From NCBI GenBank assembly GCA_951406725.2, contig OX597827.1, positions 47,554,001 through 47,618,000 of the forward strand: 64,000 bases of DNA. The letters run 5' to 3'. The DNA comes from Octopus vulgaris. Its lineage: Eukaryota. The notes under the pieces were generated by a model, which was given only the letters and a program-made list of their open reading frames with translations, was not told where the DNA came from and searched no databases. Positions 470 through 62,277 of the stretch are shown here, piece by piece. The position numbers and the translations under genes are program-made. The number at the start of each line of letters is the position of its first letter. The first letter of the stretch is position 1.

Positions 470-686
470 AAGAAGGGCTAAACACAGAGAGGACAAACAA
501 TGACAGACAAACGGATTAAGTCGAATACATCGACCTCAGTGCGTAACTGGTACTTATGTAATCGACCCCGAAAGGGTAAAAGGCAAAGTCGACCTCGGCG
601 GAATTTGAACTCAGAACGTAGCGGGAGACGAAATACTGCTGAGCATTCCGCCCGACGTGCTAACGTTTCTACCAGCTCGCCGCCTT
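470..686 (-). mobile_element. tRNA-derived SINE family A (Nin-domain-like core)
   Basis: Reverse complement of the 14728-14960 copy: ggcggcgagctgg head, B-box-like gagttcaaattcc, gtcgactttgccttt..cctttcggggtcga core. Confidence 0.85.
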
Positions 687-3610: not shown

Positions 3611-4791
3611 AGGGCCGTTCAATAAGTAATGCCCCTGACCCACTTGCATTTGCTTGATCTAGCAGGTGTTTGAACTGAGTCAAGTGTGAAATGGAGCTGG
3701 TTGAGTGTCGAGCTGTGATCCGGTTTTTGTATTTTAAAGGATGCACACCACGGGAGACTTTTGATGAAATGAAAGTAACTTATGGTGATGAAGCCCCATC
3801 ATATGACCTTGTAAAATGCTGGCATCGTGAATACAAACATGGTCGGAACTCTCCCAGATCTGGTCGCCCCCCTTCTGCCATTTCTGAGGCATCTGTCTGT
3901 CAAGTTGAGGCTGCCATTTTGGAAGATCGACGCATAACTATTCCCCAAATAGCCCATGAGTTCAAGATTAGTACCGGTTCTGTGGAAACTATCATTCATG
4001 ACGATTTGCATATGCAAAAGGTGTCTGCCAGATGGATTCCCATGTTGCTCACACTTTTCCAGAAGCAAGAACGCGTCGAGTGCTCGAGGATGAATTTGGA
4101 GATGTGTCAAGAAGATGAGTCAAAATTTTTCAAAAGATTGATTACACAGGATGAAATCTGGTCCATCACTATGATCCAGAGACCAAAGCCCAGTAAATGC
4201 AGTGGAAGAACCGTGACTTATCTCCTCCAAAGAAGGCAAGGGTGCAGCCTTCCGTTGGCAAGGTCATGCTCACAGTCTTCTGGGACCAGGACGGAGTAGG
4301 GATGACAGATTTCCTGGAAAAGGGTACCACAATTGCAGGATCCTATTATGCTTCACATTTGAGGAAATTAAGAGAAACTATGAAAATCAAGAGGCGGGAC
4401 AAGATCACAAAGGCATCCTCCTCCTGCAGGACAACGCTCCGGTCCACAACTCGCGTGTCGCCAGATCAGAAGCACAGGCGTGCGGCTATAAACTCCTCCC
4501 CCACCCCTACTCTCCTGACCTTGCACCCTCTGATTTTCACGTCTTCCCAGTCATGAAGTGGTTTTTGAAAGGAAAGCGTTTCCCAGATGATGCAGCCTTG
4601 ATTTCTGAAGTCACGTCGTGGTTGGAGGACCAAGCTGGAGTCTTCTACAAAAACGGTCTCCAGAGCTGCATCAAACGACGAGAGAAATGCGTAACACTGG
4701 ATGGTTCCTATGTAGATAAAGACTAGTAACTGTGCCAAGTTTCGTTGCTCTAGGAAGTGGGTCAGAGGCATTACTTATTGAACGCCTCTCG
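3609..4791 (+). mobile_element. Full-length mariner (Tc1/mariner) DNA transposon with irritans-like CGAGGG ends
   Basis: ~37-bp TIRs cgagggccgttcaataagtaatgcccctgacccactt / aagtgggtcagaggcattacttattgaacgcctctcg followed by TA; sits between (TA)n tracts; encloses transposase. Confidence 0.93.
3691..4726 (+). pseudogene. Frameshifted mariner transposase
   Basis: HTH N-terminus (RAVIRFL..APSYDLVKCW..GRP), WIPMLL (WVPHEL variant), ITQDE, KVMLTVFWD, QDNAPVH and YSPDLAPSD motifs spread over different frames. Confidence 0.92.
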
Positions 4792-6660: not shown

Positions 6661-6750
6661 AAATATAAAAACTTATATATATATATAATAATAATAATGA
6701 TATATATATATAATAATAATAATAATGATATATATATATATATATATATA

Positions 6751-6957
6751 TTTCTTTACTACCCACAAGGGGCTAAACACAGAGGGGACAAACAAGGACA
6801 GACAAAGGGATTAAGTCGACTACATCGACCCCAGTGCGTAACTGGTACTTAATTTATCGACCCCGAAAGGATGAAAGGCAAAGTCGACCTCGGCGGAATT
6901 TGAACTCGAACGTAACGACAGACGAAATATGGCTACGAATTTCGCCCGGCGTGCTAA
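6751..6957 (-). mobile_element. SINE family A, head-truncated, inside (TA)n
   Basis: Matches 14728-14960; intact tail gtcccctctgtgtttagccccttgtgggtagtaaagaaat. Confidence 0.88.
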
Positions 6958-7428
<471 letters not shown>

Positions 7429-14727: not shown

Positions 14728-14960
14728 AAGGCGTCGAGCTGGCAGAAAAGTTAGCGCGCCGGGCGAAATGCTTAGCGGTATTTGGTCTGTCATTACGTTC
14801 TGAGTTCAAATTCCGCCGAGGTCGACTTTGCCTTTCATCCTTTCGGGGTCGATAAATAAAGTACCAGTTTCGCACTGGGATCGATGTAATCGACTTAATC
14901 GCTTTGTCTGTCCTTGTTTGTCCCCTCTATGTTTAGCCCCTTGTGGCTAGTAAAGAAATA
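14728..14960 (+). mobile_element. Full tRNA-derived SINE family A
   Basis: aggcgtcgagctggcagaa head, gagttcaaattcc, gcctttcatcctttcggggtcgataaa core, gccccttgtggctagtaaagaaata tail. Confidence 0.9.
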
Positions 14961-28480: not shown

Positions 28481-29423
28481 GCTCGTCCATATGGACGCAA
28501 TTTTCCATTACACATTTTGTATTGGACATACGACTCTAATGCAATTTCATTTACTTTCAATTCCATTTCCCTTCATACAGGATATATTACTATGCATACA
28601 ACTACGTGTTGTGCTCTACGAGGAAGTGGGGCCTGATTTGTTTTATTTTCTGGCATATTGTTATGTTTGTTTAATGTATCTCGACCACGCTAACGTACCC
28701 TGTCGTCACAGGCAGACATTTTCGATTTGTGATTCTCGTTAATAATGCTTTTAAAACGGAGATAAAGAAATTCTGCCATAGAAGAAACACATCCATACAC
28801 ACACACACACACGCATACACGTATACGCATATATGGATATAAGGTAAATCAGATTCTTTTCATTTTACGAATTAATTTTGGCTGCAAGTTTTGGCACAAG
28901 GCCAGTAAATTTGGAGAAGGCGTCGAATCGAATACACAGCTGTTACTTATTTTACTGACCCCAAAAGGATGAAAGGCAGAGTGGACCACAGCGGAATTTG
29001 AACTCAAAACGTTAAGACGGACGAAACGCCGGCAAGCATGGCCCGGAGGGCTAACGATTTTCACAGATCACCACTATATTTCAGTTATTCATACTGGATT
29101 CAAATTTGGGGACATGGCCAGCAATATTTGTTGGAGCGGGTACGTCGATTACACTGACCCCAATGCTCAACTGTTACTCATTTTATCGATTTCAAAACGA
29201 TGAAATGCGAATTATACCTTCAAGGTATTTGAACTCAGAAAGTAAAGACGGACGAAATGCCGCTAAGCATTTCGCTATCGTGCTACCGATTCCACCAGCT
29301 TACCAACTTATTTTAAGAAATGATATTGAAATCAAAATTCAATTGCAAAATACCAATGTTAATCAAGTAATAATATTCATTTGTCAAAATTCAAACTTTG
29401 CACCTATTTTGTACCAGTTTGCC

Positions 29424-29962: not shown

Positions 29963-31165
29963 TTAGGTTGTCAAGAATGTTCTTGGGGTTTTTAACCTTT
30001 AAATTCAGATGCACATATCTCGAAATAAGCACCACCAGAATCAACACACTTTTGTCAACGCGAAGCAAGTATATTTATGCCAGTTTCGCAAAAATCCTGC
30101 GTTCTGGTGGCGTCTTTGTTTTGGCATCGTCTTGGTTTTGAAGCAGTTTTCGCGCAGGAACTTGTTGAGATTCTTGAAAAAGTGGTCGTCGGTAGATGAG
30201 AGGTCTGGTGAGTATGGCGGATGAGGCAGAGTTCCGTAGCCCAATTCGTTCAACTGCTGCAGAATCAGTTGTGCAATATGCGGCCGAGCGTTGCGGTGGA
30301 GAAGAACTGGTCCTCTTTTATTGGCCAGTGCTGGCTGTCGTTGTTGGAGTTTCTCATGCATTTCATCCATTTGCTGCCAGTACTTCTCCAAAGTACTGGA
30401 TCCAAAAAGCTGTAATGGATGAGACATGGCGTGGACCCTCAAACAGTCCCAATGACCTTCTTTTGGTGCAACTTTGGCTTCGGGAAGTGTCGTGGAACTT
30501 CGTCGGTGTCTAATCACTGAGCTGAGCGTCGCCGGTTGTCGTAAAGATGCCACTTTTCCTCGCAAGTCACAATCCGGTCGTTCTCGTTGCGTAAAAGAAG
30601 GGAAGACGACACTTCAGAACAGCGTTTTTTTTTGGTTGTCGTTCAATTCGTACGCCACCCATTTCTCAAGTATTTTTGTTTTTCCAATCTCTTTTAAGTG
30701 ATTGGAAATTGTCGTACAAGTTATGTCTAATTGATAAGCAAGATCTCGAACAGTTGTGCGTGGATTGGCTTCCACTAAGTCTCTTTGTTGATCGTTGCCA
30801 ACATCCATTGGACGATCACTGCGCTTATTATCTTCAAGACTCTCGTGACTTCTACGAATGTTCTTGAACCACCATTGTACCGTACGTTCATTAGGGGTTC
30901 CTGGGCCAAATGCATCGTTGATATCCCGAGCTATTTCAGCGGCTTTTCGGCCAAGTTTGAACTGGAATAGGAAAACTGTGCGAATTTGCTTTTCATCTAT
31001 GTTGTATTCAAAGTTCCGGAAAAAGAGTAACATGTTTAGGTAGAGCGTAAAACGGGCTTTAAAATGATATATAAAGTCAAAGTAATTTAACGAACATTAA
31101 TTTGAAAATATATCATTTTAAACCAAAATTAAAAATTCCCCCCAAGTATTTTCTCGATATCCTAA
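29963..31165 (-). mobile_element. Mariner transposon, Hsmar1/cecropia-like, decayed
   Basis: Imperfect TIRs ttaggttgtcaagaatgttcttgggg / ccccaagtattttctcgatatcctaa flanked by TA; transposase pieces inside. Confidence 0.88.
30041..31000 (-). pseudogene. Frameshifted mariner transposase
   Basis: IRTVFLFQFKLGRKAAEIARDINDAFGPGTPNERTVQWWF, WVAYEL, LLHRNARPH, LPHPPYSPDLSSTD. Confidence 0.9.
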
Positions 31166-35640: not shown

Positions 35641-36323
35641 AAATCGATTAGAGCTTTAAACTTCGATGAAATTAATGTTTCTGGGAATGCAACTTCTATC
35701 GTTTTTGAGAAAATGCTTTTTTAACTGATTCTATGATGTGTTATTTAATGGTGCAGGGATAATTTTATCGAACACAGGTGAAAACAGGTAAATTTTCTTT
35801 ATCTGTTTTGCTTTAACTAGAGGAGTTAGAATTAGAAGAGTGAAAGTGCGCTCTATACAAATTCTGTGAATTAGCTGAAATTTAGGAAAGTTTAAGAGAT
35901 ATTTGATAACTTATTTTCAAACACACATCCTGAGTGCTTAGAATGTCTATGCTCTAATTAAATATCTTCTGATATGTAAGTCTATATAGGAAATTAGAAA
36001 CACGGATAGTAATAATAAGTGTATTTCAATTTTATGAACTTGGCCTATTATTCAGAAACACGGTCCATAGAACAAGTTGCTGAACATTTTACATTACAAT
36101 CTTTTGTTCTGAAGCCAACATCCATAATTATGCTTAAGTGATCGTCGTCTTCGTATAGGATGTTCATGCTTCACGGGGGCAGCCTTTCAAATTTTATTGG
36201 ATATATTAGCCAACGTTTCACTGTTTTTCTTGAGATTTGAGTACCCATATCATTGGCGTCAAGGAGCGAAAACAAACCGATTTGAGTATCATCGGATTAG
36301 AAAAGATTATTGGAAGTAGTAAG

Positions 36324-36715
36324 ACAGTGAGCTGTCAGAATCTTTAGCACGCCGTGCGAAATACTTAGCGGTGTTACGTTCTGTGTTCAAATTCTGCTGA
36401 GGTCGACTTTGCATTTCATCCTTTCGTGGTCGATAAATTAAGCACCAGTTGCGTACTGGATCGATCTAATTTACTGCCCCCCCTCCCCAAGAAATTCTGT
36501 GCCTTGTGTCTAGAGTAGAAAAGAATCGTTAGCACGGCGAGCAAAACGTTTAGCGGCATTCGGCCTGTCATTACGTTCTGAGTTCAAATTCTGCCGAGGT
36601 CGACTTTGCCTTTCAACGTTTCGGAGTCAATAAATTAAGTAGCAGTGGAGAAATGAGGTCGAATTAGTCGACTAATCACCTTCCCCCAAATTTCAGGCGT
36701 TTTACATTTGGTAGT
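36324..36715 (+). mobile_element. Two adjacent SINE family A copies
   Basis: gttcaaattctgc.gaggtcgactttgc core twice. Confidence 0.75.
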
Positions 36716-38825: not shown

Positions 38826-39360
38826 AGGTAGCGAAATGCTTAGCAGCATTTAGTCCGTCTTTACGTTCCGAGTTCAAATTCTGCCGAGGTGGGCTTTGTC
38901 TTCAATCATTTCATGGTAGATAAATTAAATTAAGTACCAATGAGTACTGGGTGGATAAAATAAGTACCAGCTGATTACTAGGGTCGATGTAATCGATTAC
39001 TCACCAACCGCCACATTTCAGGCCTATAATAGAAAGGATTTATTCTTCTTCTTCTTCTTCTTCTTCCGTATTTCGTCTGCCTCCACGTTATGAGGTCAAA
39101 TTCCGCCGAGGTCCACTTCACCTTTCATCCTTTCGGGGTAGATTAAATAGGTACCATTTACGCACTGGGGTCGATTTAATCGACTTAATAAGTTTGTCTG
39201 TCCTTGTTTGTCCTCTCTCTGTTAAGCCCCTTGTGGGTAGTAAAGAAATAGGCATTTCGTCTGCCACTACGTTCTGAGTTCAAGTTCCGCCGGGTTTGAC
39301 TTTGCCTTTCATCCTGCACTCTTAAATTTCGGGCCATGTGCCACTAGTGGAAAGGATTAT
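38826..39360 (+). mobile_element. Cluster of SINE family A copies and fragments
   Basis: Repeated gttcaaattccgccgagg core; tail gccccttgtgggtagtaaagaaata at 39226-39250. Confidence 0.8.
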
Positions 39361-39377
39361 TATTACTATAAATAGTG

Positions 39378-40593
39378 ATTTCTTTATTAAGATTATATAA
39401 TCTTATACATAGAATTACAAATACATAACAAACATGCAAAACAAATAATTAAGAGGTTCGCTATTTAAAAATTTTTTTTTTTTTATAACATTTGTATTAA
39501 AAATTCGTTTTTTTAAATTGTCCTTTATATAACCAGTAGCATCTTTATCACAGTTCAAACCCCGGCAATTTACAAGCCCCGCAGCTTTTATTTCCTCTCC
39601 TCCCTCCATAGTTAAGCTGGGTTTCTAACACCCACCTTTCTTTCCACTTCCTTCCATCTTTTCTCATACACGCCCCGTGGTAAGCTCCTCTTCTCCAGCC
39701 CCATTTTGCTCTTCAGATGATATCTGAAGTAAGTGAGCAAGCCGGGGCCGGAGACAAAGGTTCCTATCGCGGCTCCTTCCATTCTCGTTCTCCACATGCA
39801 TTCTTTTACTACTGCAACCGTACAGTGAAAACATGCCTCACCTTCCTTCGAGAGTCCAGTTGGCGGTATCATCTTAATCATAGACTCAGCCGACAGCTGT
39901 ACTCGTCCTAGATGCGATAACACGTGTTCTGCGTAACTTATCAAGTCTGACAACTTCCGACAGTGTACAAAGGCGTGTTGAACGGTTTCATCGTCCAACT
40001 CGCACCTTGGACACGTCGGTGGCACTGGAATTCCGTGCCGCGATAACTTCTCGCGAACAGGTAGAGCGTTCCTATAACACTGCCAGGCCAGGGATCTTTG
40101 GAAATTATCCAAGTACCCCGTCCTGAAAGTCTTTTTAAACAGGTTGGTAAGCTGGTCTTCATCAAACCCCAGAGCCCCTCCTAGGACGTCGTCGTTTTTT
40201 TCCTCTACCAGCCTTCTATAAAATACCGAGGTGGTATTTCCGCAGCCGGCCTTGCCCGCCTTGTGGATCAGCGTGAGTGCCTGTCGGCACTCCCTTTGCC
40301 ACAAAGTCAGTTTCCATCTTTTGATGCGACCGGGTTTAAAATCCGTTAAGGAGGCCAGTCTCGGGAAAAATTTCCCTGCCAGCGGACTCCACACCTTATC
40401 ACCCTCCAGGTGGTGCCAGAGATGCTTCAGCCTCAACGCATGTCTGCGCATCATCAGCCAAGGCATTCCTAACCCACCCTTTAACGGTTCCTGGCAGCAA
40501 ACGGAGCGCCTCACAAGTGGCTTTCCTCCCTTCCACAAAAAGCGGAAAAGGATTCGCTCCAACTTGTTAAGCCATGAACCGGGGCAAGGGACA
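39378..40593 (-). mobile_element. 5'-truncated L1/Tx1-clade non-LTR retrotransposon
   Basis: ORF2 C-terminal part plus 3' UTR ending aataaagagaaat; homology stops abruptly near 40593. Confidence 0.85.
39612..40562 (-). CDS. C-terminal third of L1/Tx1 ORF2 (post-RT region with zf-RVT cysteine motif), no true start
   Basis: ILFRFLWKGGKPLVRR..CCQ...GGLGMP, LAWQCYRNALPV, CPRCELDDETVQHAFVHC (CX2C..H....C). Confidence 0.85.
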   Translation of the reverse strand: MERILFRFLWKGGKPLVRRSVCCQEPLKGGLGMPWLMMRRHALRLKHLWHHLEGDKVWSPLAGKFFPRLASLTDFKPGRIKRWKLTLWQRECRQALTLIHKAGKAGCGNTTSVFYRRLVEEKNDDVLGGALGFDEDQLTNLFKKTFRTGYLDNFQRSLAWQCYRNALPVREKLSRHGIPVPPTCPRCELDDETVQHAFVHCRKLSDLISYAEHVLSHLGRVQLSAESMIKMIPPTGLSKEGEACFHCTVAVVKECMWRTRMEGAAIGTFVSGPGLLTYFRYHLKSKMGLEKRSLPRGVYEKRWKEVERKVGVRNPA

Positions 40594-41605
40594 TATGTTC
40601 ACATTCTTTGGCCATTAAGGGTGACGATATTTCATCTGCGTTTGTTCTTCGTCTTATACGTTCCCTAGAAACACTCCAGCGCGTTTGCTGCGAGTTTAGT
40701 TACCGTCAACGCGATAGTGCAACAGGCGGTTCTAGACTACGTGTTACTAGCAGTCCTTACAAAGGGGCTGGCATAGTCTCTGTATTTGGAATACCAGATA
40801 CCACAAGCAAAAATAATTTATCAGTTAATGGATTATTCAGTTTAAATATATTTTTATGAAGTTGAATCTAAGAGATTGCTTTTTGTCTTCTTCAAGAGAA
40901 ATTTTCTAAAATGGAAATGAGTTATGCATAGTTTAGAATACATCGCTGATATTATACAAACGGAATGTGCACAGAAAATTTTAATGAACGTTTTATAGGA
41001 AATACACACAAGATGATATGTGCTTCTTGGAGAAGAGGGGAAAAGGAGAGAGATGGTAATGAAATAAAGTAAATATTGGAGAAAAAATACAGCAATTTCG
41101 ATATGAGAATAGCAAACAATATTGAAAAGTCAACATCAGCGCTTTTAGAATCATTTGTGTAAGGGCCATAACGTTTTTAGACACGTTAACATTCCTTAAT
41201 TAAGTAAGGAATGAATTCATATTGCATTCATTGTGAGGACGGATTATTTGATTTAAGTTTATGAATAGCATTAAGTAGATTAAGCTGAAAAGAAAATGAA
41301 ACTGTATTGAGTAATTTAAATATGAATGCAGATATCTATTGGAGAATTTTGATTCGTCGAAATATCAAAAATAGATAAATATTATTTAAAAACGGAAGGT
41401 TACCTAAAAGTGTTAGCTACAGAAATATGTGCAAGGCTGTATAATGGAAGGTTTCTTATGAGAGATAACGGTAAAAAAGAACAAAAAGCGTTGTTGTTGT
41501 TGTGGAAATTCTGAACGGCGTTGACGCGGTTTCGCGTTTCGCTCGTTCAGCGCGTTACACTTTTTCTGTTTTGGAGGCCGTTCTCGGTCTGTCAGACAGA
41601 AGGAG

Positions 41606-43020
41606 ATGGACTATGAGTCTCTAACAGACTTGTCCACGACAGATGAGGAACTGGAACAGGCAATTGCAATGAAGCTGATGGAAGAAAAGGCTGGAGTTTT
41701 CGAGTCTTTATCAGACCTGTCTACGTCTGAGAAGGAGCTAGAAATGGCAGCAAGGAATTTGGAAGAGAAGCTGGGTTATACCTATGCCGGTGTAACCAAG
41801 AAGGCGGAAGAGAAAGGGGTCGACATGGCCAAGTTGCCAAGTTACCAGAAATACATGAAAAAGGAAAGTGGTGAGGTGGAACTATCACCGACACCCAGGA
41901 GAAAAGAATGGTATGATAAGAGGACGATTAGTTACAGGGTGTTCGCAAACGAAAGGAAGAGGGTAGAAGTTGTAACCATGGAATGGATAGAGGAAGCCCT
42001 GCGAAGAACTGAGGAGGAAATAAATTTTCTGACTCGAGGATCCAAGTACGGTACCGTAGTTGTGCATTTCAAAACTGAGTCTGCAGCGAGGAAGATGGCG
42101 GCGAAGGCGGTGAAGTCAGAAAAGGTAACCCTATTACCTACGTATTTAAACAGGAGGATTACACGAATAAGGGTGGAGGGAGTGCCACCAAACGTGGAGG
42201 CAGAATGGATTGTGGCGGCTGTGATCGGCGGCCGCGAGGACGAGGTGGATATTCTCCATGCCTCGGTTGGGTCCGAGGGCTGGAGAGGAGTAACAGTGGA
42301 GCTGAACGTACAGGCAGAGACCGAGGTACTGGTGGACCTGACGGAAAGCATCAGACTGGGAGACGTGATCATGAGAGTGTGGGTGGAGGGCAGGGCTCCA
42401 CGCTGTTACAAGTGTGGCCTGAGGGGTCACATAAGAGCCTTCTGCCCTCCCCCAGGGAAAGAAACGGATTCCGAACCAGAGAGAGAGAAGCAGAAACCAG
42501 AGGAGAAGGAAACAGAGGAAGAGAATACACAGAAATGGAAGGAAGCTGGAAGTAAGAGGAAGAGAAGAATTCATGGAAAAGAAAATAATATGGAACTTCA
42601 ATCTACCCCAAAACCACCCACACCCTCTGAGTCCCACCCTATCCATGCAGACATTGAACCCACCCGCTCCCCCCCAACAAGAAAACAAAAGAAAAAAAGA
42701 ATACACACACACAAGAGATTGAAATCGAACCCAGGCCGTACATTTGTACTATGACTGAACAGAGGGAAGTTAAAAGTCTAATGGAAGAGTATAAATGGTA
42801 TGATGTTGGAGAGACTAGGTATGCTGTGATTGAAAAGAAGAACATAGGTGAGTTTATGGGGAGGTGTGAAAGGGAGAATTGGGAGGTGAAAGATATAAGA
42901 ATGAGCGATGAATTCGTGGAAAATATGAATGAGTATTTCGGAGTAAGAATGGATATGGAATTTATTCGTATTGGCAAAGAACATTCAAGTGACTATGAAA
43001 AACAAAGGACAGGTAAGTGA
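41606..43020 (+). CDS. LINE ORF1/gag-like protein, copy 1 (~471 aa if one A-run frameshift near 42690-42710 is corrected)
   Basis: RRM-like segments (GTVVVHFKTESAA; RIRVEGVPP), CCHC knuckle CYKCGLRGHIRAFC at 42404-42445, basic KRKRR; C-terminus is in frame in copy 2. Confidence 0.8.
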
Positions 43021-43369
43021 TGCTGACGGACGGGGCCGTTGGTATCGCTTTCATTTTATCATTTTTTTCGTTTAACAATTCATGTTCATATAGTTTAATT
43101 ATAATGTTCTATGTCCCCATGTCTTTTGCTGTCCCCCTCTGTGTCGCCCCTTAGTGGGTAATAAAAAAAAAAAAAAAATAAAATAAAAAAAAAAATAAGG
43201 CTGTATAATGGAAGGTTTCTTATGAGAGATAACGGTAAAAAAGAACAAAAAGCGTTGTTGTTGTTGTGGAAATTCTGAACGGCGTTGACGCGGTTTCGCG
43301 TTTCGCTCGTTCAGCGCGTTACACTTTTTCTGTTTTGGAGGCCGTTCTCGGTCTGTCAGACAGAAGGAG

Positions 43370-44792
43370 ATGGACTATGAGTCTCTAACAGACTTGTCCA
43401 CGACAGATGAGGAACTGGAACAGGCAATTGCAATGAAGCTGATGGAAGAAAAGGCTGGAGTTTTCGAGTCTTTATCAGACCTGTCTACGTCTGAGAAGGA
43501 GCTAGAAATGGCAGCAAGGAATTTGGAAGAGAAGCTGGGTTATACCTATGCCGGTGTAACCAAGAAGGCGGAAGAGAAAGGGGTCGACATGGCCAAGTTG
43601 CCAAGTTACCAGAAATACATGAAAAAGGAAAGTGGTGAGGTGGAACTATCACCGACACCCAGGAGAAAAGAATGGTATGATAAGAGGACCGATTAGTTAC
43701 AGGGTGTTCGCAAACGAAAGGAAGAGGGTAGAAGTTGTAACCATGGAATGGATAGAGGAAGCCCTGCGAAGAACTGAGGAGGAAATAAATTTTCTGACTC
43801 GAGGATCCAAGTACGGGTACCGTAGTTGTGCACTTTCAAAACTGAAGTCTGCAGCGAGGAAGATGGCGGCGAAGGCGGTGAAGTCAGAAAAGGTAACCCT
43901 ATTACCTACGTATTTAAACAGGAGGATTACACGAATAAGGGTGGAGGGAGTGCCACCAAACGTGGAGGCAGAATGGATTGTGGCGGCTGTGATCAGCGGC
44001 CACGAGGACGAAGTGGATATTCTCCATGCCTCGGTTAAGTCCGAGGGCTGGAGAGGCGTAACAGTGGAGCTGAACCCCCAGGCAGAGACCGAGGTACTGG
44101 TGGACCTGACGGAAAGCATCAGACTGGGAGATGTGATCATGAGAGTGTGGGTGGAGGGCAGGGCTCCACGTTGTTACAAGTGTGGCCTGAGGGGTCACAT
44201 AAGAGCCTTCTGCCCTCCCCCAGGGAAAGAAACGGATTCCGAACCAGAGAGAGAGAAGCAGAAACCAGAGGAGAAGGAAACAGAGGAAGAGAATACACAG
44301 AAATGGAAGGAAGCTGGAAGTAAGAGGAAGAGAAGAATTCGTGGAAAAAAAGAAAATAATATGGAACTCCAATCTACCCCAAAACCACCCACACCCTCTG
44401 AGTCCCACCCTATCCATGCAGACATTGAACCCACCCGCTCCCCCCCAACAAGAAAACAAAAGAAAAAAAAGAATACACACACACAAGAGATTGAAATCGA
44501 ACCCAGGCCGTACATTTGTACTATGACTGAACAGAAAGAAGTTAAAAGTCTAATGGAAGAGTATAAATGGTATGATGTTGGAGAGACTAGGTATGCTGTG
44601 ATTGAAAAGAAGAACATAGGTGAGTTTATGGGGAGGTGTGAAAGGGAGAATTGGGAGGTGAAAGATATAAGAATGAGCGATGAATTCGTGGAAAATATGA
44701 ATGAGTATTTCGGAGTAAGAATGGATATGGAATTTATTCGTATTGGCAAAGAACATTCAAGTGACTATGAAAAACAAAGGACAGGTAAGTGA
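43370..44792 (+). CDS. ORF1/gag-like protein, copy 2 (frameshift near 43690, compensating indels 43815-43845)
   Basis: Same protein; reads continuously through the knuckle to ..KQRTGK*. Confidence 0.75.
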
Positions 44793-45127
44793 TGCTGACG
44801 GACGGGGCCGTTGGTATCGCTTTCATTTTATCATTTTTTCGTTTAACAATTCATGTTCATATAGTTTAATTATAATGTTCTATGTCCCCATGTCTTTTGC
44901 TGTCCCCCTCTGTGTCGCCCCTTAGTGGGTAATAAAAAATCAGAAATATGTGCAAGGCTGTATAATGGAAGGTTTCTTATGAGAGATAACGGTAAAAAAG
45001 AACAAAAAGCGTTGTTGTTGTTGTGGAAATTCTGAACGGCGTTGATGCGGTTTCGCGTTTCGCTCGTTCTGCGCGTTAAACTTTTTTCTGTTTTGGCGGC
45101 CGTTTTCGGTCTGTCAGACAGAAGGAA

Positions 45128-46559
45128 ATGGACTATGAGTCTCTAACAGACTTGTCCACGACAGATGAGGAACTGGAACAGGCAATTACAATGAAGCTGA
45201 TGGAAGAAAAGGCTGGAGGTTTCGAGTCTTTATCAGACTTGTCTACGTCTGAGAAGGAGCTAGAAATGGCAGCAAAGGAAATTGGACGAGAAGCTGGGAT
45301 ATACCTATGCCGGTGTAACCAAGAAGGCGGAAGAGAAAGGGGTCGACTTGGCCAAGCTACCAAGTTACCAGAAATACATGAAAAAGGAAAGCGGTGAGGT
45401 GGAACTATCACCGACACCCAGGAGAAAAGAATGGTATGATAAGAGGACCATTATTTACAGGGTGTTCGCAAACGAAAGGAAGAGGGTAGAAGTTGTAACC
45501 ATGGAATGGATAGAGGAAGCCCTGAGAAGAACTGAGGAGGAAATTTATTTTCTGACTCGAGGATCCAAGTACGGCACAGTAGTTGTGCATTTTAAAAGTG
45601 AGTCTGCAGCGAGGAAGATGGCGGCGAAGGCGGTGAAGTCAGAAAAGGTAACACTGTTACCTACGTATTTAAACAGAAGGATTACACGAATAAGGGTGGA
45701 GGGAGTGCCTCCAAACGTGGAGGCAGAAGTGGATTGTGGCGGCTGTGATCAGCGGCCACGAGGACGAAGTGGATATTCTCCATGCCTCGGTTAAGTCCGA
45801 GGGCTGGAGAGGCGTAACAGTGGAGCTGAACGTACAGGCGGAGAACGAGGTACTGGTGGATCTTGCGGAAAGCATCAGACTGGGAGACGTGATCATGAGA
45901 GTGTGGGTGGAGGGCCGGGCTCCACGTTGTTACAAGTGTGGCCTGAGGGGTCACATAAGAGCCTTCTGCCCTCCCCCAGGGAAAGAAATGGATTCCGAAC
46001 CACAGAGAGAGAAGCAGAAACCAGAGGAGAAGCAGAAACGAGTAGAAGAGGAAGAGAATACATAGAAATGGAAGGAAGTTGGAAATAAGAGGAAGAGAAG
46101 AATGCGAGAAAAAAAAGAAAATAACATGGAACACCAATCTACCCCAAAACCACCCACAGCCTTTGAGTCCCACCCTATCCATGCAGACATTGAACCCACC
46201 CGCTCCCCCCAACAAGAAAACAAAAGAAAAAAAAAGAATACACACACAGACAAGAGATTGAATTCGATATCAGGCCGTACATTTGTACTATGACTGAACA
46301 GAAAGAAGTTAAAAGTCTAATGGAAGAGTATAAATGGTATGAAGTTGGTGAGACTAGGTATGCTGTGATTGAAAAGAAGAACATAGGTGAGTTTATGGTG
46401 ATGTGTGAAAGGGAGAATTGGGAGGTGAAAGATATAAGAATGAGCGATGAATTCGTGGAAAATATGGATGAGTATTTCGGAGTAAGAATGGATATGGAAT
46501 TTATTCGTATTGGCAAAGAACATTCAAGGGACGATGAAAAACAAAGGACAGGTAAGTGA
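45128..46559 (+). pseudogene. ORF1/gag-like protein, copy 3 (several frameshifts or stops)
   Basis: Fragments 45128-45397, 45282-45794, 45736-46065, 46290-46559. Confidence 0.75.
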
Positions 46560-46914
46560 TGCTGGCGGATGGGGCCGTCGGTATCGCTTTCATAATATCA
46601 TTTTCTTTCACCTAACAATTCATTTTTCATAAATTTTAATTATAAATGTTCTATGTCCCCATGTCTTTTGCTGTCCACCTCTGTGTCGCCCCTAGTGGGT
46701 AATAAAGAAATTTAAAAGTGTTAGCTACAGAAATATGTGCAAGGCTGTATAATGGAAGGTTTCTTATGAGAGATAACGGTAAAAAAGAACAAAAAGCGTT
46801 GTTGTTGTTGTGGAAATTCTGAACGGCGTTGATGCGGTTTCGCGTTTCGCTCGTTCTGCGCGTTAAACTTTTTTCTGTTTTGGCGGCCGTTTTCGGTCTG
46901 TCAGACAGAAGGAA

Positions 46915-48325
46915 ATGGACTATGAGTCTCTAACAGACTTGTCCACGACAGATGAGGAACTGGAACAGGCAATTACAATGAAGCTGATGGAAGAAAAGGC
47001 TGGAGGTTTCGAGTCTTTATCAGACTTGTCTACGTCTGAGAAGGAGCTAGAAATGGCAGCAAGGAAATTGGACGAGAAGCTGGGATATACCTACGCCGGT
47101 GTAACCAAGAAGGCGGAAGAGAAAGGGGTCGACTTGGCCAAGCTACCAAGTTACCAGAAATACATGAAAAAGGAAAGCGGTGAGGTGGAACTATCACCGA
47201 CACCCAGGAGAAAAGAATGGTATGATAAGAGGACCATTATTTACAGGGTGTTCGCAAACGAAAGGAAGAGGGTAGAAGTTGTAACCATGGAATGGATAGA
47301 GGAAGCCCTGAGAAGAACTGAGGAGGAAATTTATTTTCTGACTCGAGGATCCAAGTACGGCACAGTAGTTGTGCATTTTAAAAGTGAGTCTGCAGCGAGG
47401 AAGATGGCGGTGAAGTCAGAAAAGGTAACACTGTTACCTACGTATTTAAACAGAAGGATTACACGAATAAGGGTGGAGGGAGTGCCACCAAACGTGGAGG
47501 CAGAGTGGATTGTGGCGGCTGTGATCAGCGGCCACGAGGACGAAGTGGATATTCTCCATGCCTCGGTTAAGTCCGAGGGCTGGAGAGGCGTAACAGTGGA
47601 GCTGAACGTACAGGCGGAGAACGAGGTACTGGTGGACCTGGCGGAAAGCATCAGATTGGGAGACGTGATCATGAGAGTGTGGGTGGAGGGCAGAGCTCCA
47701 CGTTGTTACAAGTGTGGCCTGAGGGGTCACATAAGAGCCTTCTGCCCTCCCCCATGGAAAGAAATGGATTCCGAACCAGAGAGAGAGAAGCAGAAACCAG
47801 AGGAGAAGGAGACAGTAGAAGAGGAAGAGAATACACAGAAATGGAAGGAAGTTGGAAATAAGAGGAAGAGAAGAATGCGAGGAAAAGAAAATAACATGGA
47901 ACACCAATCTACCCCAAAACCACCCACACCCTCTGAGTCCCACCCTATCCATGCAGACATTGAACCCACCCGCTCCCCCCAACAAGAAAAAAAAAGAAAA
48001 AAAGAATACACACAGACAAGAGATTGAATTCGATATCAGGCCGTACATTTGTACTATGACTGAACAGAAAGAAGTTAAAAGTCTAATGGAAGAGTATAAA
48101 TGGTATGAAGTTGGTGAGACTAGGTATGCTGTGATTGAAAAGAAGAACATAGATGAGTTTGTGGTGAGGTGTGAAAGGGAGAATTGGGAGGTGAAAGATA
48201 TAAGAATGAGCGATGAATTCGTGGAAAATATGGATGAGTATTTCGGAGTAAGAATGGATATGGAATTTATTCGTATTGGCAAAGAACATTCAAGGGACGA
48301 TGAAAAACAAAGGACAGGTAAGTGA
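46915..48325 (+). CDS. ORF1/gag-like protein, copy 4 (one frameshift in the A-run near 47990-48010; 3-codon deletion)
   Basis: 370-aa ORF plus C-terminal part in another frame. Confidence 0.78.
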
Positions 48326-48913
48326 TGCTGACGGATGGGGCCGTTGGTATCGCTTTCATAATATCATTTTCTTTCACTTAACAATTCATTTTTCATAAAT
48401 TTTAATTATAATGTTCTATGTCCCCATGTCTTTTGGTGTCCACCTCTGTGTCGCCCCTAGTGGGTAATAAAGAAATAAATGCCAGACAGGAAACTGAATA
48501 TTATTAAAGAATATAATCGAAGATAGAGATCCACGAACAGCATTGTGCATTACTCCATTAATAAATGGGAGTCTAGAATATCCAACCAAGAGCTTACATA
48601 CAATAATCTTCAAATATTTTATCTCACAGTTTTAGGAAGCTGCACTCGCTTTACAGCGTTCCACATTAATATGATATCACTCTACAGTGTGAAGCAGAAG
48701 AGAGAAACGAAAGATGCGTGGAGATAAATGATAATTAAGGTTTAATGTAGTAGGTAAATGTGAAGGCGGTTAATCGCCCATTTAAGTGCATATGTACCAT
48801 GATTACGAGGTTTGTATCTGAAGCGATGTGTGTGCAAATACAGAGATAGGGAACATTATATATATATTGATGAATGAATATTTAACTGGGTTGGAGTTCT
48901 GGAGATGAATATA

Positions 48914-50864: not shown

Positions 50865-50945
50865 ACTTAGATGATCAAATGAGTTAAATTATAAATTTTG
50901 CATTGAAAATCGCTAAATATAAGAATCGCAGTTACAAATGGAGGT

Positions 50946-51481
50946 TTGGGTTGTCCGGAAAGTTCGTGCCGATTTATAGTAGCTTACCTTTCGACTTATT
51001 TTAGAACATGGTTGAGTCCATAAAACAGGATTTGACTGCACTTCCATTTAGAGCAATGTTTAAGCTATCTTTTCGTGGAAGGAGGTTTATGTTCCTATAA
51101 CCTGTGTTAATTTTGTAATCCTTTAAAATGGAAGATAAGAAAGTTCATTTGCGGCAATTGCTGTTTTGGGAACCAGACAAAAATTGCTGCAGCTCGGCTG
51201 GAATGTGTTACTCCACCCTCCATATTTACCAGATATTGCTCCTTCGGGTTTCCACTTATTCAGGTCTCTGCAGAGTAGTCTTAATGGTAATAATTTCAAT
51301 TCCTTGGATGACGTAAAAAGATACCTAGATGAATTCTTTGCCCTGAAACCACCTCATTTCTGAGAAGATAGTATTTTCAAATTAAAGGATAGATGGAGAC
51401 GCATTGTGCAACAAAATGGTTCATATTTATCGACCTTTTTCTTTCCTTTAAAAAGTGGCACGAACTTTCCGGAAAACCCAA
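50946..51481 (+). mobile_element. Internally deleted mariner
   Basis: TIRs ttgggttgtccggaaagttcgtgcc / ggcacgaactttccggaaaacccaa; MEDKKVHLR start joined to LGWNVLLHPPYLPDIAPSGFHLFRSLQ. Confidence 0.88.
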
Positions 51482-51734: not shown

Positions 51735-52168
51735 GGATCTTTTCGGTTTGAACGGCAGTTTTTAACATAATTTCTAGGTAACTAAAACATGTTAAACCTC
51801 GTATACTGGTAGAATGTGTTTATAAAACATCTTTTTCTCATGGCTTTTTTTGAAAAAATTCTATAGTTAGTAAGATATTTTTTGTTTTTTTCTTCAATTT
51901 CTTCAATTTTAACCAATCAATTTCGTCTATTGAAGTAAAAAACATTCTGTGCCGTATGAATATGTCCCTTGTTTAAGAAACAGATTGTGTTTATTTACAT
52001 TTCTGAAGAAAAAGATACCCTTCCCCATCCTCTAACCCTAACTAACCCTAATTAACCCTAACCCTAAAACAGATTGAAATGCAATAGATCGATACTAGTT
52101 TCATAATTATGGGTGACAATTTCATTTGACACCGCTAGAAAAAACTGCTGTTCAAATCGAAAAGATCC
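51735..52168. mobile_element. Merlin-type MITE flanked by a ~65-bp direct repeat
   Basis: TIRs ggatcttttcggtttgaacggcagttttt / aaaaactgctgttcaaatcgaaaagatcc; shares cgtatactggtagaatgtgt with 59274-60357. Confidence 0.75.
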
Positions 52169-53146
52169 GGGATAAGATTTTGAATATTCTAATATCTTGT
52201 AATGACTGTGATTATGTTTGAAAATTTCCAGATCTCTTCTCACAAAGAAGTGCCGGAAAATCTTTCGAAAGTTTCGAAAGAATATTTATGTTGAAACTAT
52301 TTTCACATGAAACAGTTTTCTGTGAAGTCTAGTATTTTCCCTGTTGAGTTTTTCGAATAAAATTAATTATCGAAATATATATATATTATTTATTGGAAAT
52401 CTTACATAGTTTGAACAACTGCGTAAACGCACGTGACTGGATGTCAATATCCGTCTTAAATTTCTATTATTAATAATTGGAATTTAGTATTCTATTTGCA
52501 GATTCACCTCAAACTTAATTTAACGTAATATTTATCAAAACTCTTACAATATTTGTATATTCAGGAAACATTTATCTGTGAAATTAAAGAAAGGTTTACC
52601 GATAATTCTTCACACCTTCAAGCTAAAGGCTTCTTTAAATCAAATATGACTTTTTTCTGCTTCTTCATGCTTGGTGAATGATACTAAATTAATTTATAAA
52701 GATAAGACAATTTATAAAGGTAAGTTGTGTGAATCGCTGGTGTGTCGCACAAAAAGTTTCAGCGGAATTCCGACTCTATACGTTTTGAGTTCAAATTTCA
52801 CCGAGGTCTGTTTTGATCCTTCATCCCTTCGAGATCAATAAAATAAGTATAAAATCTTTGGTGGATGTAATTGATTACCCACACTCCAAATTTCCTGGAC
52901 GTGTACCAAATTTAAAACCATTTCAGTTTATGCAGTAATTTTATTCTTCACATCTCGCTGGTTTCACACTTATTCATAATAAGGAGCCGCGTTCAAAATA
53001 TTATCTATCGGAGGCGAAACACTCTGGAAGACTATAAGATTTTTCTCGAAATTATTTCTAAAGTCAGCTAAGTAGTTTGAAGCAAAATATATATCCCTAT
53101 TCACTTTTTTATTTAGCTCGCTCATTGATGAATATTAAGTATTTTA

Positions 53147-59120
<5,974 letters not shown>

Positions 59121-59122
<2 letters not shown>

Positions 59123-60464
59123 CAGGCCTTTGCTAGTTAACCCATAGCTGGAACTCTTACAGGTGCTACCACTCTGGGCCAGAGTAGACCTGGGAACAAA
59201 GTGGCTGAAGGTTTATATATATATATGAGTCCTTTTTCCTTATATCCCCCCCCGTGATGTTTATAGTCATACCGGATCTTTTCTAAAAGATGGACATAAT
59301 TTCTACTTAACTAAATAATTTGAAACTTCGTATACTGGTAGAATGTGTCAAAAGAAAACATTAATTCCAATTAGTTTTTTTGAGAAAATTGTATTTTGTA
59401 ACTTTTACGTAGTTTAATTCTTCGAATTTTAACCAATGAAATCCCAGCATTTGAGCTAAATTCAGTTGCTGCGTCTAAGTAAACAGCAGACACACACACA
59501 CGCACACGTGTTATTCATCCATCACTTCTGTCTGCTGTCTTCTGCAGGTGCTAGAAATAACAGTTATATCTCTTAAATCGATGTATTTCGTCGCCCAATA
59601 AAAAAATTAACGATATTTTTTAAATATTTTCTTAATTTTTTTTTTCCGAAAAGGCTTCTCCCATGTTTATTTCAATGTCATCCCTGACTTACGGAACGAT
59701 TACCTGTGTGTGTGTCTTTTTGTTGTGTATGTGTGTGCGTGTGTGTGTGTTATTGTTGTGTATGTGAGTGTGTGTGTGTGTTTCTTTGTTGTGTATGTGT
59801 GTGTGTGTGTTTTTTGTTGTGTATGTGTGTGTGTGTTTTTGTTGTGTATGTGTACGTGTGTGTGTGTGTTTGTTGTGTATGTGTGTGCGTGTGAAGTATG
59901 TAAGTGGTGCGTTAGGCATGTCTTTATATGAAATAAATAACAAGACAATGCGTGGTAACCGCAACAAAAAATTGATGTCCTGCGAAAGCGGACCGAATAC
60001 GAAGGTGTTTTAAAAGTCCAAAAAATATCGTTAATATTTTTATTGGGCGACGAAATTCATCGATTTAAGAGATATAGCTGTTATTTCTAGCACCTGCAGA
60101 AGACAGAAGACAGAAGCGATGGATGAATAACACGTGTGCGTGTGTGTGTGTCTTACACGCAGCAACTGAATTTAGCTCAAATGCTGGGATTTCATTGGTT
60201 AAAATTCGAAGAATTAAACTACGTAAAAGTTACAAAAAACAATTTTCTCATAAAAACTAATTGAAATTAATGTTTTCTTTTGACACATTCTACCAGTATA
60301 CGAGGTTTCAAATTATTTAGTTAAGTAGAAATTATGTCCATCTTTTAGAAAAGATCCGTCATACCAATGTGATCTATGCCTTGACCCGAGCACTCACCTC
60401 TTGAGCTGAGGAATGAAGAGAATGCCTGGTCTGCGGCTCCTAAAACATGGGGAATAGGCCTGGG
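59121..60464. mobile_element. Short-TIR element (cccaggcct / aggcctggg) in (TA)n, hosting a MITE
   Basis: 9-bp inverted termini abutting TA repeats on both sides. Confidence 0.55.
59274..60357. mobile_element. Merlin-type MITE with ~345-bp arms and 8-bp TSD
   Basis: GGATCTTTTCT.../...AGAAAAGATCC termini, TSD gtcatacc at 59266-59273 and 60358-60365; central GT-rich minisatellite 59705-59893. Confidence 0.88.
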
Positions 60465-61640: not shown

Positions 61641-62277
61641 TATTAGACGAAATATCAAAAGTGAGGCAGAAAGGTACCTGAAGTTATTTTGAATAATTAA
61701 ATTAGAGGAAGCTTAATTTGAAGTCTTACAGGTGTTTCTGGGATAGGCCAAATGTGTTGGTTAGTATGTCCTTGTACTGGGTTTTCCGTCATCAGAGACA
61801 AGGTATGAATATTTTAGACAGGAGAAATTTACAGTTAACAAGGAATAAATTTCACAGTTTGTAAGGAATAAAACAAAAGAATAAAAAGTACAAGCATTTA
61901 GAAGAATATAAGCAGGAGAGACATGTTCAAACTCATCTTTTCCCAGAGAATATGTATGTCGGTCCGTACTTCTATGAAGGTACAGGTTTTTTCTGAATTT
62001 ACCTGGGATTTTAACTAAAATCCTGTATCTTCATAGAAATACCGATCAACATCCGCATCTTCTGGAAATTTATTCCTTGTAAACTGTACATTTTCCTCGT
62101 CTAAAATATTCATACTTTGCCTCTGATGACGAAATAACCAGTGCACGGATGTGCTAAGCATCCACTTGGGTTATACCAGAAACATCTGTAAGTCTTCAAA
62201 TTCACCTTACCCTAATTAAATTATTCTAAATGATTTGAAATATGCGTTCTGCTTTAGTTTTAATGTTTCCTCTAATA
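61641..62277. mobile_element. Old foldback element with hammerhead-like motif in both arms
   Basis: Arms ~61641-61853 / 62066-62277; ct-CTGATGA...GAAAC-atct-GTA-ag at 62121-62192 and mirror cttacaggtgtttc..tcatcagag. Confidence 0.65.

What the first reader, a model, noticed from the sequence alone, without database searches (positions are those of the whole stretch)
43110..43165. ORF1-only unit and SINE family A share the same 3' tail
Seen: unit tail TGTCCCCCTCTGTGTC--GCCCCTTAGTGGGTAATAAA(GAAAT in copies 3/4) versus SINE tail TGTCCCC-TCTGTGTTTAGCCCCTT-GTGGGTAGTAAAGAAAT (6750-6790 minus; also ~14919-14960, ~39210-39250). Known: SINEs share 3' ends with the LINE whose RT mobilises them. Inference: a three-part system of an unseen autonomous LINE, a protein-coding ORF1-only dependant and a non-coding SINE, all using one recognition stem-loop (gcccc..gtgggt).
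Basis: partly seen in the sequence, partly recalled or inferred. Interest (0 to 1): 0.75.

Follow-up and report, generated by a model that had tools for sequence, protein, structure and literature searches.

The report
Octopus half-LINE shares SINE tail
An octopus jumping element that carries only an RNA-packaging gene ends in the same 40 bases as a common short repeat, so both probably borrow the same copying enzyme from a full-length retrotransposon that has not yet been found.

Summary
Four tandem 1.7-kb units (41470-48476) and three SINE copies end in the same ~41 nt (79-86% identical; 0 of 500 shuffles reach it). The window is Octopus DNA. The unit encodes one RRM-RRM-CCHC protein (type I ORF1) and no ORF2. 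It is a dispersed family: its last exon occurs in O. vulgaris gene models on 12 chromosome-scale sequences, and one other locus shows the same tail in another tandem junction. The ORF1 core is under purifying selection (pN/pS 0.12). The array was built by serial insertion, right to left, each copy leaving a 37-65 bp duplication of the upstream flank. Two claims are not shown: no RT-coding element with this tail was found (the neighbouring L1/Tx1-type RT fragment ends differently, and no octopus genome could be searched), and the stem-loop has four pairs with no covariation. Best reading: a HAL1-like non-autonomous LINE and a tail-swapping SINE share one partner, probably L1/Tx1-group (0.6). 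Main rival: the unit captured a SINE tail once (0.2). Each ingredient is known; this combination in octopus was not found in the papers searched.

The parts
41405..41469 (+). Upstream flank whose last 65, 50 and 37 bases are repeated between the units (read as target sequence)
   Evidence: Exact upstream identity of 37, 50, 65 bases before units 2, 3, 4; absent after unit 4; another locus has a different spacer before the same 5' end
41470..43196 (+). Unit 1 (subfamily A, last inserted), with the longest A-rich end
41606..43020 (+). ORF1 of unit 1: acidic N-terminus, two RRM-like domains, one CCHC knuckle, charged linker, small C-terminal domain; one frame break in an A/C-run region near 42690-42720. 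Same gene at 43370-44792, 45128-46559, 46915-48325, each with breaks
43130..43169 (+). Shared 3' tail, unit 1 (contains AATAAA)
43197..43233 (+). 37-bp spacer, copy of 41433-41469
43234..44940 (+). Unit 2 (subfamily A); shared tail 44901-44940
44941..44990 (+). 50-bp spacer, copy of 41420-41469
44991..46712 (+). Unit 3 (subfamily B); shared tail 46672-46711
46713..46777 (+). 65-bp spacer, copy of 41405-41469
46778..48476 (+). Unit 4 (subfamily B, founder of the array); shared tail 48437-48476
14728..14959 (+). Near full-length SINE with the shared tail (14919-14959); A-box-like and B-box-like motifs in the head
6750..6962 (-). SINE copy with the shared tail (6750-6790)
39066..39249 (+). 5'-truncated SINE copy with the shared tail (39209-39249), between two other-tailed SINE pieces
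475..686 (-). SINE copy with full head, cut inside the shared tail
39615..40598 (-). Context, not shown to belong: 3' part of an L1/Tx1-type ORF2 whose 3' end lacks the shared tail

Best explanation
The 1.7-kb unit is a protein-coding non-autonomous LINE of the HAL1/HeT-A/Ag-Sponge kind: a LINE that lost ORF2 and kept its 5' end, ORF1 and 3' end. It is transcribed, makes its own RNA-binding ORF1 protein (shown to be under selection; its role in packaging its own RNA is inferred), and is copied by target-primed reverse transcription with the endonuclease and RT of an autonomous LINE in trans (inferred). The SINE family swaps tails; the version with this tail took the 3' end of the same LINE lineage and uses the same RT (inferred). 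The partner is most likely L1/Tx1-group, from the type I ORF1 and the serial tandem insertion. The array grew right to left (unit 4, 3, 2, 1): each new copy was primed at a nick 65, 50 and 37 bases upstream of the resident copy and closed at the resident's 5' end, probably by annealing to it, which duplicated the flank in between (spacers shown; annealing step inferred). Recognition probably rests on the last ~41 nt; a role for the 4-bp hairpin is unproven.
For: Tail co-terminal and far above chance. No SINE body sequence in the unit; similarity fades upstream of the tail. The SINE body profile gives 22 hits in the window, 4 with this tail and the rest with other tails starting at the same body end, as expected for LINE-donated tails. 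Unit tails differ from all three SINE tails at the same positions (AATAAA against AGTAAA among them) and are further from the SINEs (79-86%) than the SINEs are from each other (90-95%). ORF1: confident two-domain model, Foldseek's best hits are tandem-RRM proteins (E 3e-5 to 1e-4), CCHC cysteines invariant in 21 of 21 aligned relatives. Subfamily differences in the RRM-RRM-CCHC core: 10 synonymous, 4 non-synonymous, pN/pS 0.12, P=2e-4. 26 of 186 fetched proteins carry the unit's last exon; the 17 looked up are all O. vulgaris gene models on 12 chromosome-scale sequences; 0 of 26 has an endonuclease or RT domain. P0043/P0159 read tail (9 of 9 residues), a different 5-residue spacer, then the unit's 5' end (14 of 14). 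Three different junctions and two subfamilies 4.4-5.1% apart in one array. 7 of 12 private changes in unit 1 are A>G on the sense strand against 2 of 32 in the others (P=0.0006), as an edited RNA template would give. O. vulgaris has 13 recently active L1-Tx1 families (PMC13282606). Tandem copies sandwiching a TSD are described for Tx1-mobilised SINEU-3 (PMC4494074).
Against: No RT-coding element with the tail was seen: the only ORF2 remnant in the window has another 3' end. No fused ORF1-ORF2 protein was found (weak; only 1508-4305 aa searched). Type I ORF1 also occurs outside L1/Tx1 (PMC5203782), so the clade is not fixed. SINEs with L1-clade tails are rare (3 for over 800 L1-clade LINEs, PMC3747384), and SINEU-1 shares no 3' end with any LINE surveyed. 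Units 3, 4 and the SINEs have no poly(A). Duplications of 37-65 bp are long for this group (recalled). The C-terminal domain and linker show no selection (pN/pS 1.0 and 0.9). 0 of 4 units has an unbroken ORF. The hairpin has no covariation. Gene models are a poor test for a missing ORF2.
Confidence: 0.6

Rival explanations
1. SINE-tail capture: an ORF1 retrocopy or LINE 5' half acquired the last 40-60 nt of a SINE once (insertion into its 3' UTR or a template switch). The chimera then spread as a family on whatever RT moves that SINE, which need not be of the ORF1's own clade (RTE, Dong-R4 and CR1 are also active in octopus).
For: SINEs with this tail are dense (4 in 64 kb) and SINEs make up 11.6% of the genome. 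The match is short and ends as the SINE ends, without poly(A) in units 3 and 4. The neighbouring L1/Tx1-type fragment lacks the tail. Weak similarity runs about 20 nt further 5' within the SINE's tail module.
Against: No SINE body in the unit. The unit tail is more distant from the SINEs than they are from each other, and carries AATAAA where these SINEs have AGTAAA. The SINE's tail is itself a swapped module that needs a donor.
Confidence: 0.2
2. Common descent without present function: both tails come from one LINE 3' end, but the RT recognises only the A-rich terminus (relaxed recognition), so the shared 41 nt are a polyadenylation signal and a passenger.
For: No structural covariation; folds are no better than shuffles in 9 of 11 cases; one SINE copy breaks the stem. 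Relaxed recognition is the rule in mammalian and most plant L1 (PMC3747384).
Against: The tail has 1 subfamily substitution in 36 bases against 8 in the 109 bases of 3' UTR before it (small numbers). Similarity stops where a recognition module would, and the SINEs have no poly(A).
Confidence: 0.1
3. The array came from one event of RT template jumping between four RNAs, the spacers being variable 5' ends of the element itself, not target duplications.
For: All four units share 92 invariant columns across spacer and 5' end; end-to-end template jumping is known for R2 (cited title seen).
Against: At another locus the sequence before the unit's 5' end differs; the spacer runs on into unique flank only at unit 1; spacer lengths grow left to right as serial upstream insertion requires.
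Confidence: 0.05
4. The unit is a host gene or DNA-level tandem duplication (or an assembly artefact) and not a retroelement.
For: Single-base indels in runs suggest long-read errors; ZCCHC3-like RNA-binding domains are among the Atlas look-alikes.
Against: Two subfamilies 5% apart with selection, three different junctions, A-rich ends, no introns, near-identical exons on 11-12 chromosomes.
Confidence: 0.05

Closest known systems
ORF1-present non-autonomous LINEs: HAL1 (from L1), HeT-A (from Jockey), Ag-Sponge (from CR1), as listed in PMC5786205 and PMC5753468 (passages)
   Same: One ORF corresponding to ORF1p, no ORF2, spread as a family, ORF kept by selection. Head-to-tail arrays as in HeT-A (recalled).
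   Different: Mollusc host; type I RRM-RRM-CCHC ORF1 rather than the mammalian Transposase_22 type; shares a specific 3' sequence with a SINE; arrays are interstitial with 37-65 bp flank duplications. The parent LINE is not identified.
Stringent SINE/LINE pairs with a common tail (MIR/L2, eel UnaL2 pair, maize ZmSINE/L1), PMC3747384 (passages)
   Same: About 40-45 shared terminal nucleotides, SINE with exchangeable tail, possible small hairpin.
   Different: Here the sharer seen is a non-autonomous ORF1 element, not the RT carrier; no compensatory changes were found; L1-clade tails are rare among SINEs.
Tx1-clade elements and SINEU in crocodilians, PMC4494074 (passages)
   Same: Serial tandem insertions with a target duplication between copies; type I ORF1 is consistent with Tx1 (PMC5203782).
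   Different: SINEU was tied to Tx1-Mar by target preference, not by a shared tail; its TSDs are about 10-16 bp; no fixed target could be shown here.
Octopus tRNA-derived SINEs (three families, Ohshima and Okada 1994; seen only as a citation)
   Same: Abundant octopus SINE with A/B-box-like head, common body and several tails; very probably one of the described or catalogued families.
   Different: Sequences of those families could not be read here, so the family name is not assigned.

Membership tests
ORF1-present non-autonomous LINE (HAL1-like kind) | Encodes only an ORF1-type protein, no endonuclease or RT | tested here: met
   One ORF fills the 1.7-kb unit; 25 ORF2 queries give one chance-level hit inside the array (E 0.09); no RT or endonuclease Pfam match
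ORF1-present non-autonomous LINE (HAL1-like kind) | Protein has LINE ORF1 architecture | tested here: met
   Two RRM-like domains and a CCHC knuckle, type I by the scheme quoted in PMC5203782
ORF1-present non-autonomous LINE (HAL1-like kind) | Retrotransposes as a family of its own (dispersed copies, target duplications, A-rich 3' ends) | tested here: met
   Last exon on 12 chromosome-scale sequences; flank duplications; second tandem junction in P0043/P0159. Dispersed copies were seen only as gene-model proteins
ORF1-present non-autonomous LINE (HAL1-like kind) | 5' and 3' parts derive from an identified autonomous LINE | not testable with these tools
   No eukaryotic genome or repeat library searchable; the window's own RT fragment does not match
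HAL1 in the strict sense (mammalian L1 derivative) | Type II (Transposase_22) ORF1 from mammalian L1 | tested here: not met
   No Transposase_22 match in 21 of 21 aligned proteins at E<=1; CCHC knuckle present; host is Octopus
Tx1 clade | RT sequence groups with Tx1 | not testable with these tools
   The unit has no RT and the partner is unknown
Tx1 clade | RRM/CCHC (type I) ORF1 | tested here: met
   necessary-looking but not exclusive to Tx1
Tx1 clade | Target sequence preference | tested here: inconclusive
   Repeated insertion at one site and next to other ORF1-family elements elsewhere (P0001, P0152, P0032), but flanks not identified
Stringent SINE/LINE tail pair | SINE 3' end shared with an RT-coding LINE | not testable with these tools
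   Shared only with the ORF1-only unit in this window
Stringent SINE/LINE tail pair | Conserved stem-loop with compensatory changes | tested here: inconclusive
   4 pairs, 3 invariant, 1 broken once, none covarying, 6 distinct sequences only
tRNA-derived SINE | tRNA-related head with A and B boxes | tested here: inconclusive
   A-box pattern matched in 2 of 2 full heads, strict B-box pattern in 0 of 2 (one extra base); ARAGORN and Rfam found no tRNA
tRNA-derived SINE | Short (about 230 nt), non-coding, dispersed, head-body-tail build | tested here: met

The most novel reading that the evidence does not exclude
A cross-clade parasite: an L1/Tx1-type ORF1 gene that took its 3' end, through a SINE, from a LINE of another clade that has no ORF1 of its own (RTE or Dong-R4), rides that RT, lends ORF1 protein to same-tailed SINE RNAs and so helps drive the octopus SINE expansion, stacks beside its own kind by homology, and writes A-to-I edits of its RNA back into the genome.
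Probability: 0.12. Interest if true: 0.8.

Novelty: new variant of a known kind. Interest (0 to 1): 0.5.

Why it matters
SINEs are 11.6% of the O. vulgaris genome and most recently active families are unclassified (PMC13282606); in the papers searched no partner LINE is named for them. A 41-nt tail tied to a type I ORF1 gives a direct handle for finding that partner, and would add one of very few SINE tails from the L1/Tx1 group. ORF1-only LINEs are known from mammals and insects; a selected, still recent one in a mollusc, beside a non-coding user of the same tail, lets one ask what ORF1 is worth to a parasite of a parasite. The array is also a dated stack of four insertions with long flank duplications, and the unit's last exon leaks into many octopus gene models (CFAP65 among them), which matters for annotation.

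Tried and rejected
Word-index search with unit 1 ORF1: nothing among 3075 candidates, although the exhaustive search then found 232 relatives, so that tool is insensitive here. Search for ORF1 fused to ORF2: none, but only 1508-4305 aa was covered. Pfam on 48 of the 150 listed ORF1 hits: no RT or endonuclease. The neighbouring RT fragment as partner: rejected for now, its 3' 315 nt match the tail no better than shuffles (21 and 27 of 300); the one better match there (1 of 300) is to another SINE tail and comes from a SINE piece inside the tested stretch. Tail pattern in bacterial and archaeal genomes, in case of host contamination: 0 matches. Rfam and ARAGORN: nothing. VIA-align: best Z 7.8, ACT/RRM-like folds, not decisive. 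The second model gave the C-terminal domain pLDDT of about 50-60, so it was not searched. Atlas look-alikes (CCHC-type and ZCCHC3-type clusters, 0.90-0.94) are leads only. Other tail-like peptides among 186 proteins: only P0043 and P0159 hold; 6 other rows were short chance matches. The idea that the array sits in a decayed RT gene: profile search negative, frameshift-aware alignment 1 of 8 tests above all 60 shuffles and in another register, fixed-segment test negative on the left flank (181 of 300) and weakly positive on the right (2 of 300, post hoc); not accepted. Literature searches that found no description of this element; none for edited retrocopies in cephalopods. Not readable: Bao and Jurka 2010, Albertin 2015, SINEBase supplements; the Zenodo repeat library of PMC13282606, Repbase and Dfam were out of reach and may already hold these consensus sequences. 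Viral and metagenome contig collections stayed unchecked.

Full report
1. What is there. Self-comparison shows four head-to-tail units of about 1.7 kb between 41405 and 48476, and several families of short dispersed repeats. The closest proteins to the unit's ORF are Octopus vulgaris gene models, with more distant ones from O. sinensis, O. bimaculoides and Argonauta, so the window is Octopus DNA; the species was not settled.

2. The shared tail is real. The last 40-41 nt of each unit align with the last 41 nt of three SINE copies at 33-36 identities in 41-42 columns, in 12 of 12 pairs. It is the best match between whole unit and whole SINE, it is terminal in both, and 0 of 500 and 0 of 1000 shuffles reach the scores. 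A tail profile finds only the four units and four SINE copies in the window (8 hits at E<=10), the fourth SINE being cut inside the tail. Upstream, similarity continues loosely for about 20 nt and then ends; no SINE body is present in the unit. Units have AATAAA where these SINEs have AGTAAA. Unit 1 ends in an A-rich run of about 30 nt, unit 2 in a short one, units 3 and 4 and the SINEs in AAAGAAAT.

3. The stem-loop is not established. The alignment fold gives four pairs, GCCC with GGGU around a 5-6 nt loop, at -3.7 kcal/mol. Three pairs never vary, one is broken in one SINE, none covaries (6 distinct sequences). Single-sequence folds show this hairpin in 5 of 11 cases and two more in a shifted register; 2 of 11 have z below -2. 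The data neither support nor exclude it.

4. The unit is an ORF1-only element. One gene runs from the ATG at 41606 to the TGA at 43020 in unit 1. In 0 of 4 units is it unbroken; most breaks are single-base indels in base runs, which may be read errors. An exhaustive search found 232 relatives at E<=0.001. Three cysteines of a CCHC knuckle are invariant in 21 of 21 aligned sequences, and 17 of 21 match Pfam zf-CCHC at E<=1. The AlphaFold model is confident over about residues 71-280 and its best Foldseek matches are tandem-RRM proteins. RRM plus CCHC is the type I ORF1, which PMC5203782 (passages) calls consistent with Tx1 in non-mammalian animals while noting that Jockey-group elements hold every ORF1 type. 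Twenty-five ORF2 proteins give four weak hits (E 0.04-0.09) over 40801-48900, three in the right flank and one inside unit 1 on the minus strand; there is no room for an ORF2.

5. It is a family under selection. Units 1 and 2 are 98.8% identical, 3 and 4 98.6%, and the pairs 94.9-95.6%. Of the substitutions between the pairs, the RRM-RRM-CCHC core has 10 synonymous and 4 non-synonymous (pN/pS 0.12, P=2e-4), the N-terminus 5 and 5 (0.27, P=0.04), the linker 2 and 7 (0.9) and the C-terminal domain 1 and 5 (1.0). So the core was translated and needed while the subfamilies diverged; the C-terminal part shows no constraint. Of 186 proteins fetched, 26 carry the unit's last exon; 17 of the 26 were looked up and all are O. 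vulgaris gene models, on 12 sequences of 78-226 Mb (11 without the 61%-identical P0023). None of the 26 has an RT or endonuclease domain, while two control ORF2 proteins did; this is weak evidence, since gene models avoid repeats. Two models with consecutive accessions, P0043 and P0159, splice into the tail (9 of 9 residues as in unit 4), read five residues not found at any junction here, and then the unit's first 14 codons (14 of 14, 41470-41511). This places the tail and a tandem junction at another locus, puts the 5' end near 41470, and implies a spacer of about 16 nt there if no intron intervenes.

6. How the array formed. The bases before units 2, 3 and 4 are exact copies of the last 37, 50 and 65 bases of the flank before unit 1, and nothing like them follows unit 4. 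An insertion into an internal spacer can only leave an equal or shorter spacer on its right, so spacers that grow to the right fix the order 4, 3, 2, 1, each copy landing in the original upstream flank (inference). This fits the subfamily order B, B, A, A and the longest A-run in unit 1. Tandem copies around a TSD are described for Tx1-mobilised SINEU-3 (PMC4494074, passages). The unusual lengths are best explained if the new cDNA end anneals to the resident copy's 5' end; the first 55 bases of the unit are invariant in all four. Such joining to a resident copy is recalled from L1 work and was not read here.

7. The SINE. It is about 230 nt with an A-box-like and a B-box-like motif (the latter with one extra base); ARAGORN and Rfam see no tRNA. 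A profile of head and body gives 22 hits in the window; 4 carry this tail and are the closest to each other, the rest continue into at least two other tails from the same body end. Tail exchange is the usual sign that tails are LINE-donated recognition modules (PMC5786205, PMC4758252, passages). The family name could not be assigned.

8. The missing partner. The only ORF2 remnant in the window lies at 39615-40598 on the minus strand (zf-RVT, E 8.5e-11; 50-52% identical to RT proteins P0160 and P0161; relatives carry endonuclease, RT and zf-RVT). Its 3' end lacks the tail. O. vulgaris has 80 L1-Tx1 families, 13 of them recently active with 421 insertions, besides active RTE, Dong-R4 and CR1 (PMC13282606, parts 1-2 of 3 and a supplement search), so candidates exist, but no octopus DNA outside the window could be searched. 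The autonomous element therefore remains inferred.

9. Weighing. Descent of both tails from one LINE is favoured by the absence of SINE body in the unit, the modular SINE tails, the fixed differences and the polyadenylation signal. Capture of a SINE stub is not excluded: the match is short, SINEs are dense, and L1-clade tails are rare among SINEs (3 for over 800 LINEs; PMC3747384, passages). I give 0.6 to a shared L1/Tx1-group partner, 0.2 to capture, 0.1 to a passenger tail, 0.1 to the two non-serial readings of the array.

10. Known and new. ORF1-only LINEs (HAL1, HeT-A, Ag-Sponge) and SINE/LINE tail sharing are both known. The unit works like HAL1 but is not HAL1: its ORF1 is of another type. 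Five searches of the held library (listings, and passages of the papers named above plus PMC4824008, PMC3531059 and PMC8967140) found no description of an octopus ORF1-only element or of a partner for octopus SINE tails; subscription papers and repeat databases were not seen and may hold it. Verdict: a real new variant of a known kind, interest 0.5.

Noticed in passing
window 42227, 42234, 42244, 42269, 42270, 42764, 42765: 7 of 12 substitutions private to unit 1 are A>G on the sense strand, five within 44 bases, against 2 of 32 in units 2-4 (Fisher P=0.0006). This looks like A-to-I editing of a template RNA written back to DNA (heavy editing in cephalopods is recalled). The pair at 42764-42765 also shows in P0001, P0004 and P0005, so it is not only read error; long-read A/G confusion is not excluded for the rest.
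   Followed up: partly
window 43010-43020 and equivalents: The ORF ends on a splice-donor-like site (CAG/GTAAGT). Many O. vulgaris gene models use the last 88 codons as an exon joined to unrelated exons, including a CFAP65 model (P0004).
   Followed up: partly
P0001, P0152, P0032, P0002 (gene models on three chromosomes): These models join the unit's exon to another copy or to a different ORF1-family member, so mixed tandem arrays seem to recur; P0001 and P0152 have the same linker on two chromosomes.
   Followed up: partly
window 28923-29305(-), 36322-36681(+), 38831-39345(+): SINEs with the same body sit head to tail in pairs or a triple; at 39066 and 39251 two successive copies start at nearly the same point of the head.
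   Followed up: no
window 40990-41469 and 48477-48640: By eye the flanks hold RT-like words in order (YTQDD, NIEKS, PLINGSLEYP), as if the array sat in a decayed LINE gene; formal tests were negative on the left and weakly positive on the right.
   Followed up: partly
window 39470-40800(-): 5'-truncated L1/Tx1-type ORF2 with an open 328-codon stretch and a poly(A) near 39474-39485, head to head with the array.
   Followed up: partly
window 3679-4726(+), 30041-31096(-), about 50940-51480: Mariner-type transposase remnants (HTH_48, DDE_3 for the first two); the third judged by eye.
   Followed up: no
window 59273-60358 and 61641-62277: Two inverted repeats (349 bp at 94%, 215 bp at 80%), probably MITEs; related pieces at 51765-51920.
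   Followed up: no
window 53100-59150: About 6 kb of mixed (TA)n, (TG)n and (CATA)n microsatellite with extreme GC skew.
   Followed up: no
one search hit list: The ORF1 family is very diverse in octopods (232 clusters at 50% identity), so several other ORF1-only families may exist; P0158 (861 aa) lies on a 6159-nt contig, just long enough to hold a 1150-aa ORF2 as well (arithmetic only).
   Followed up: no
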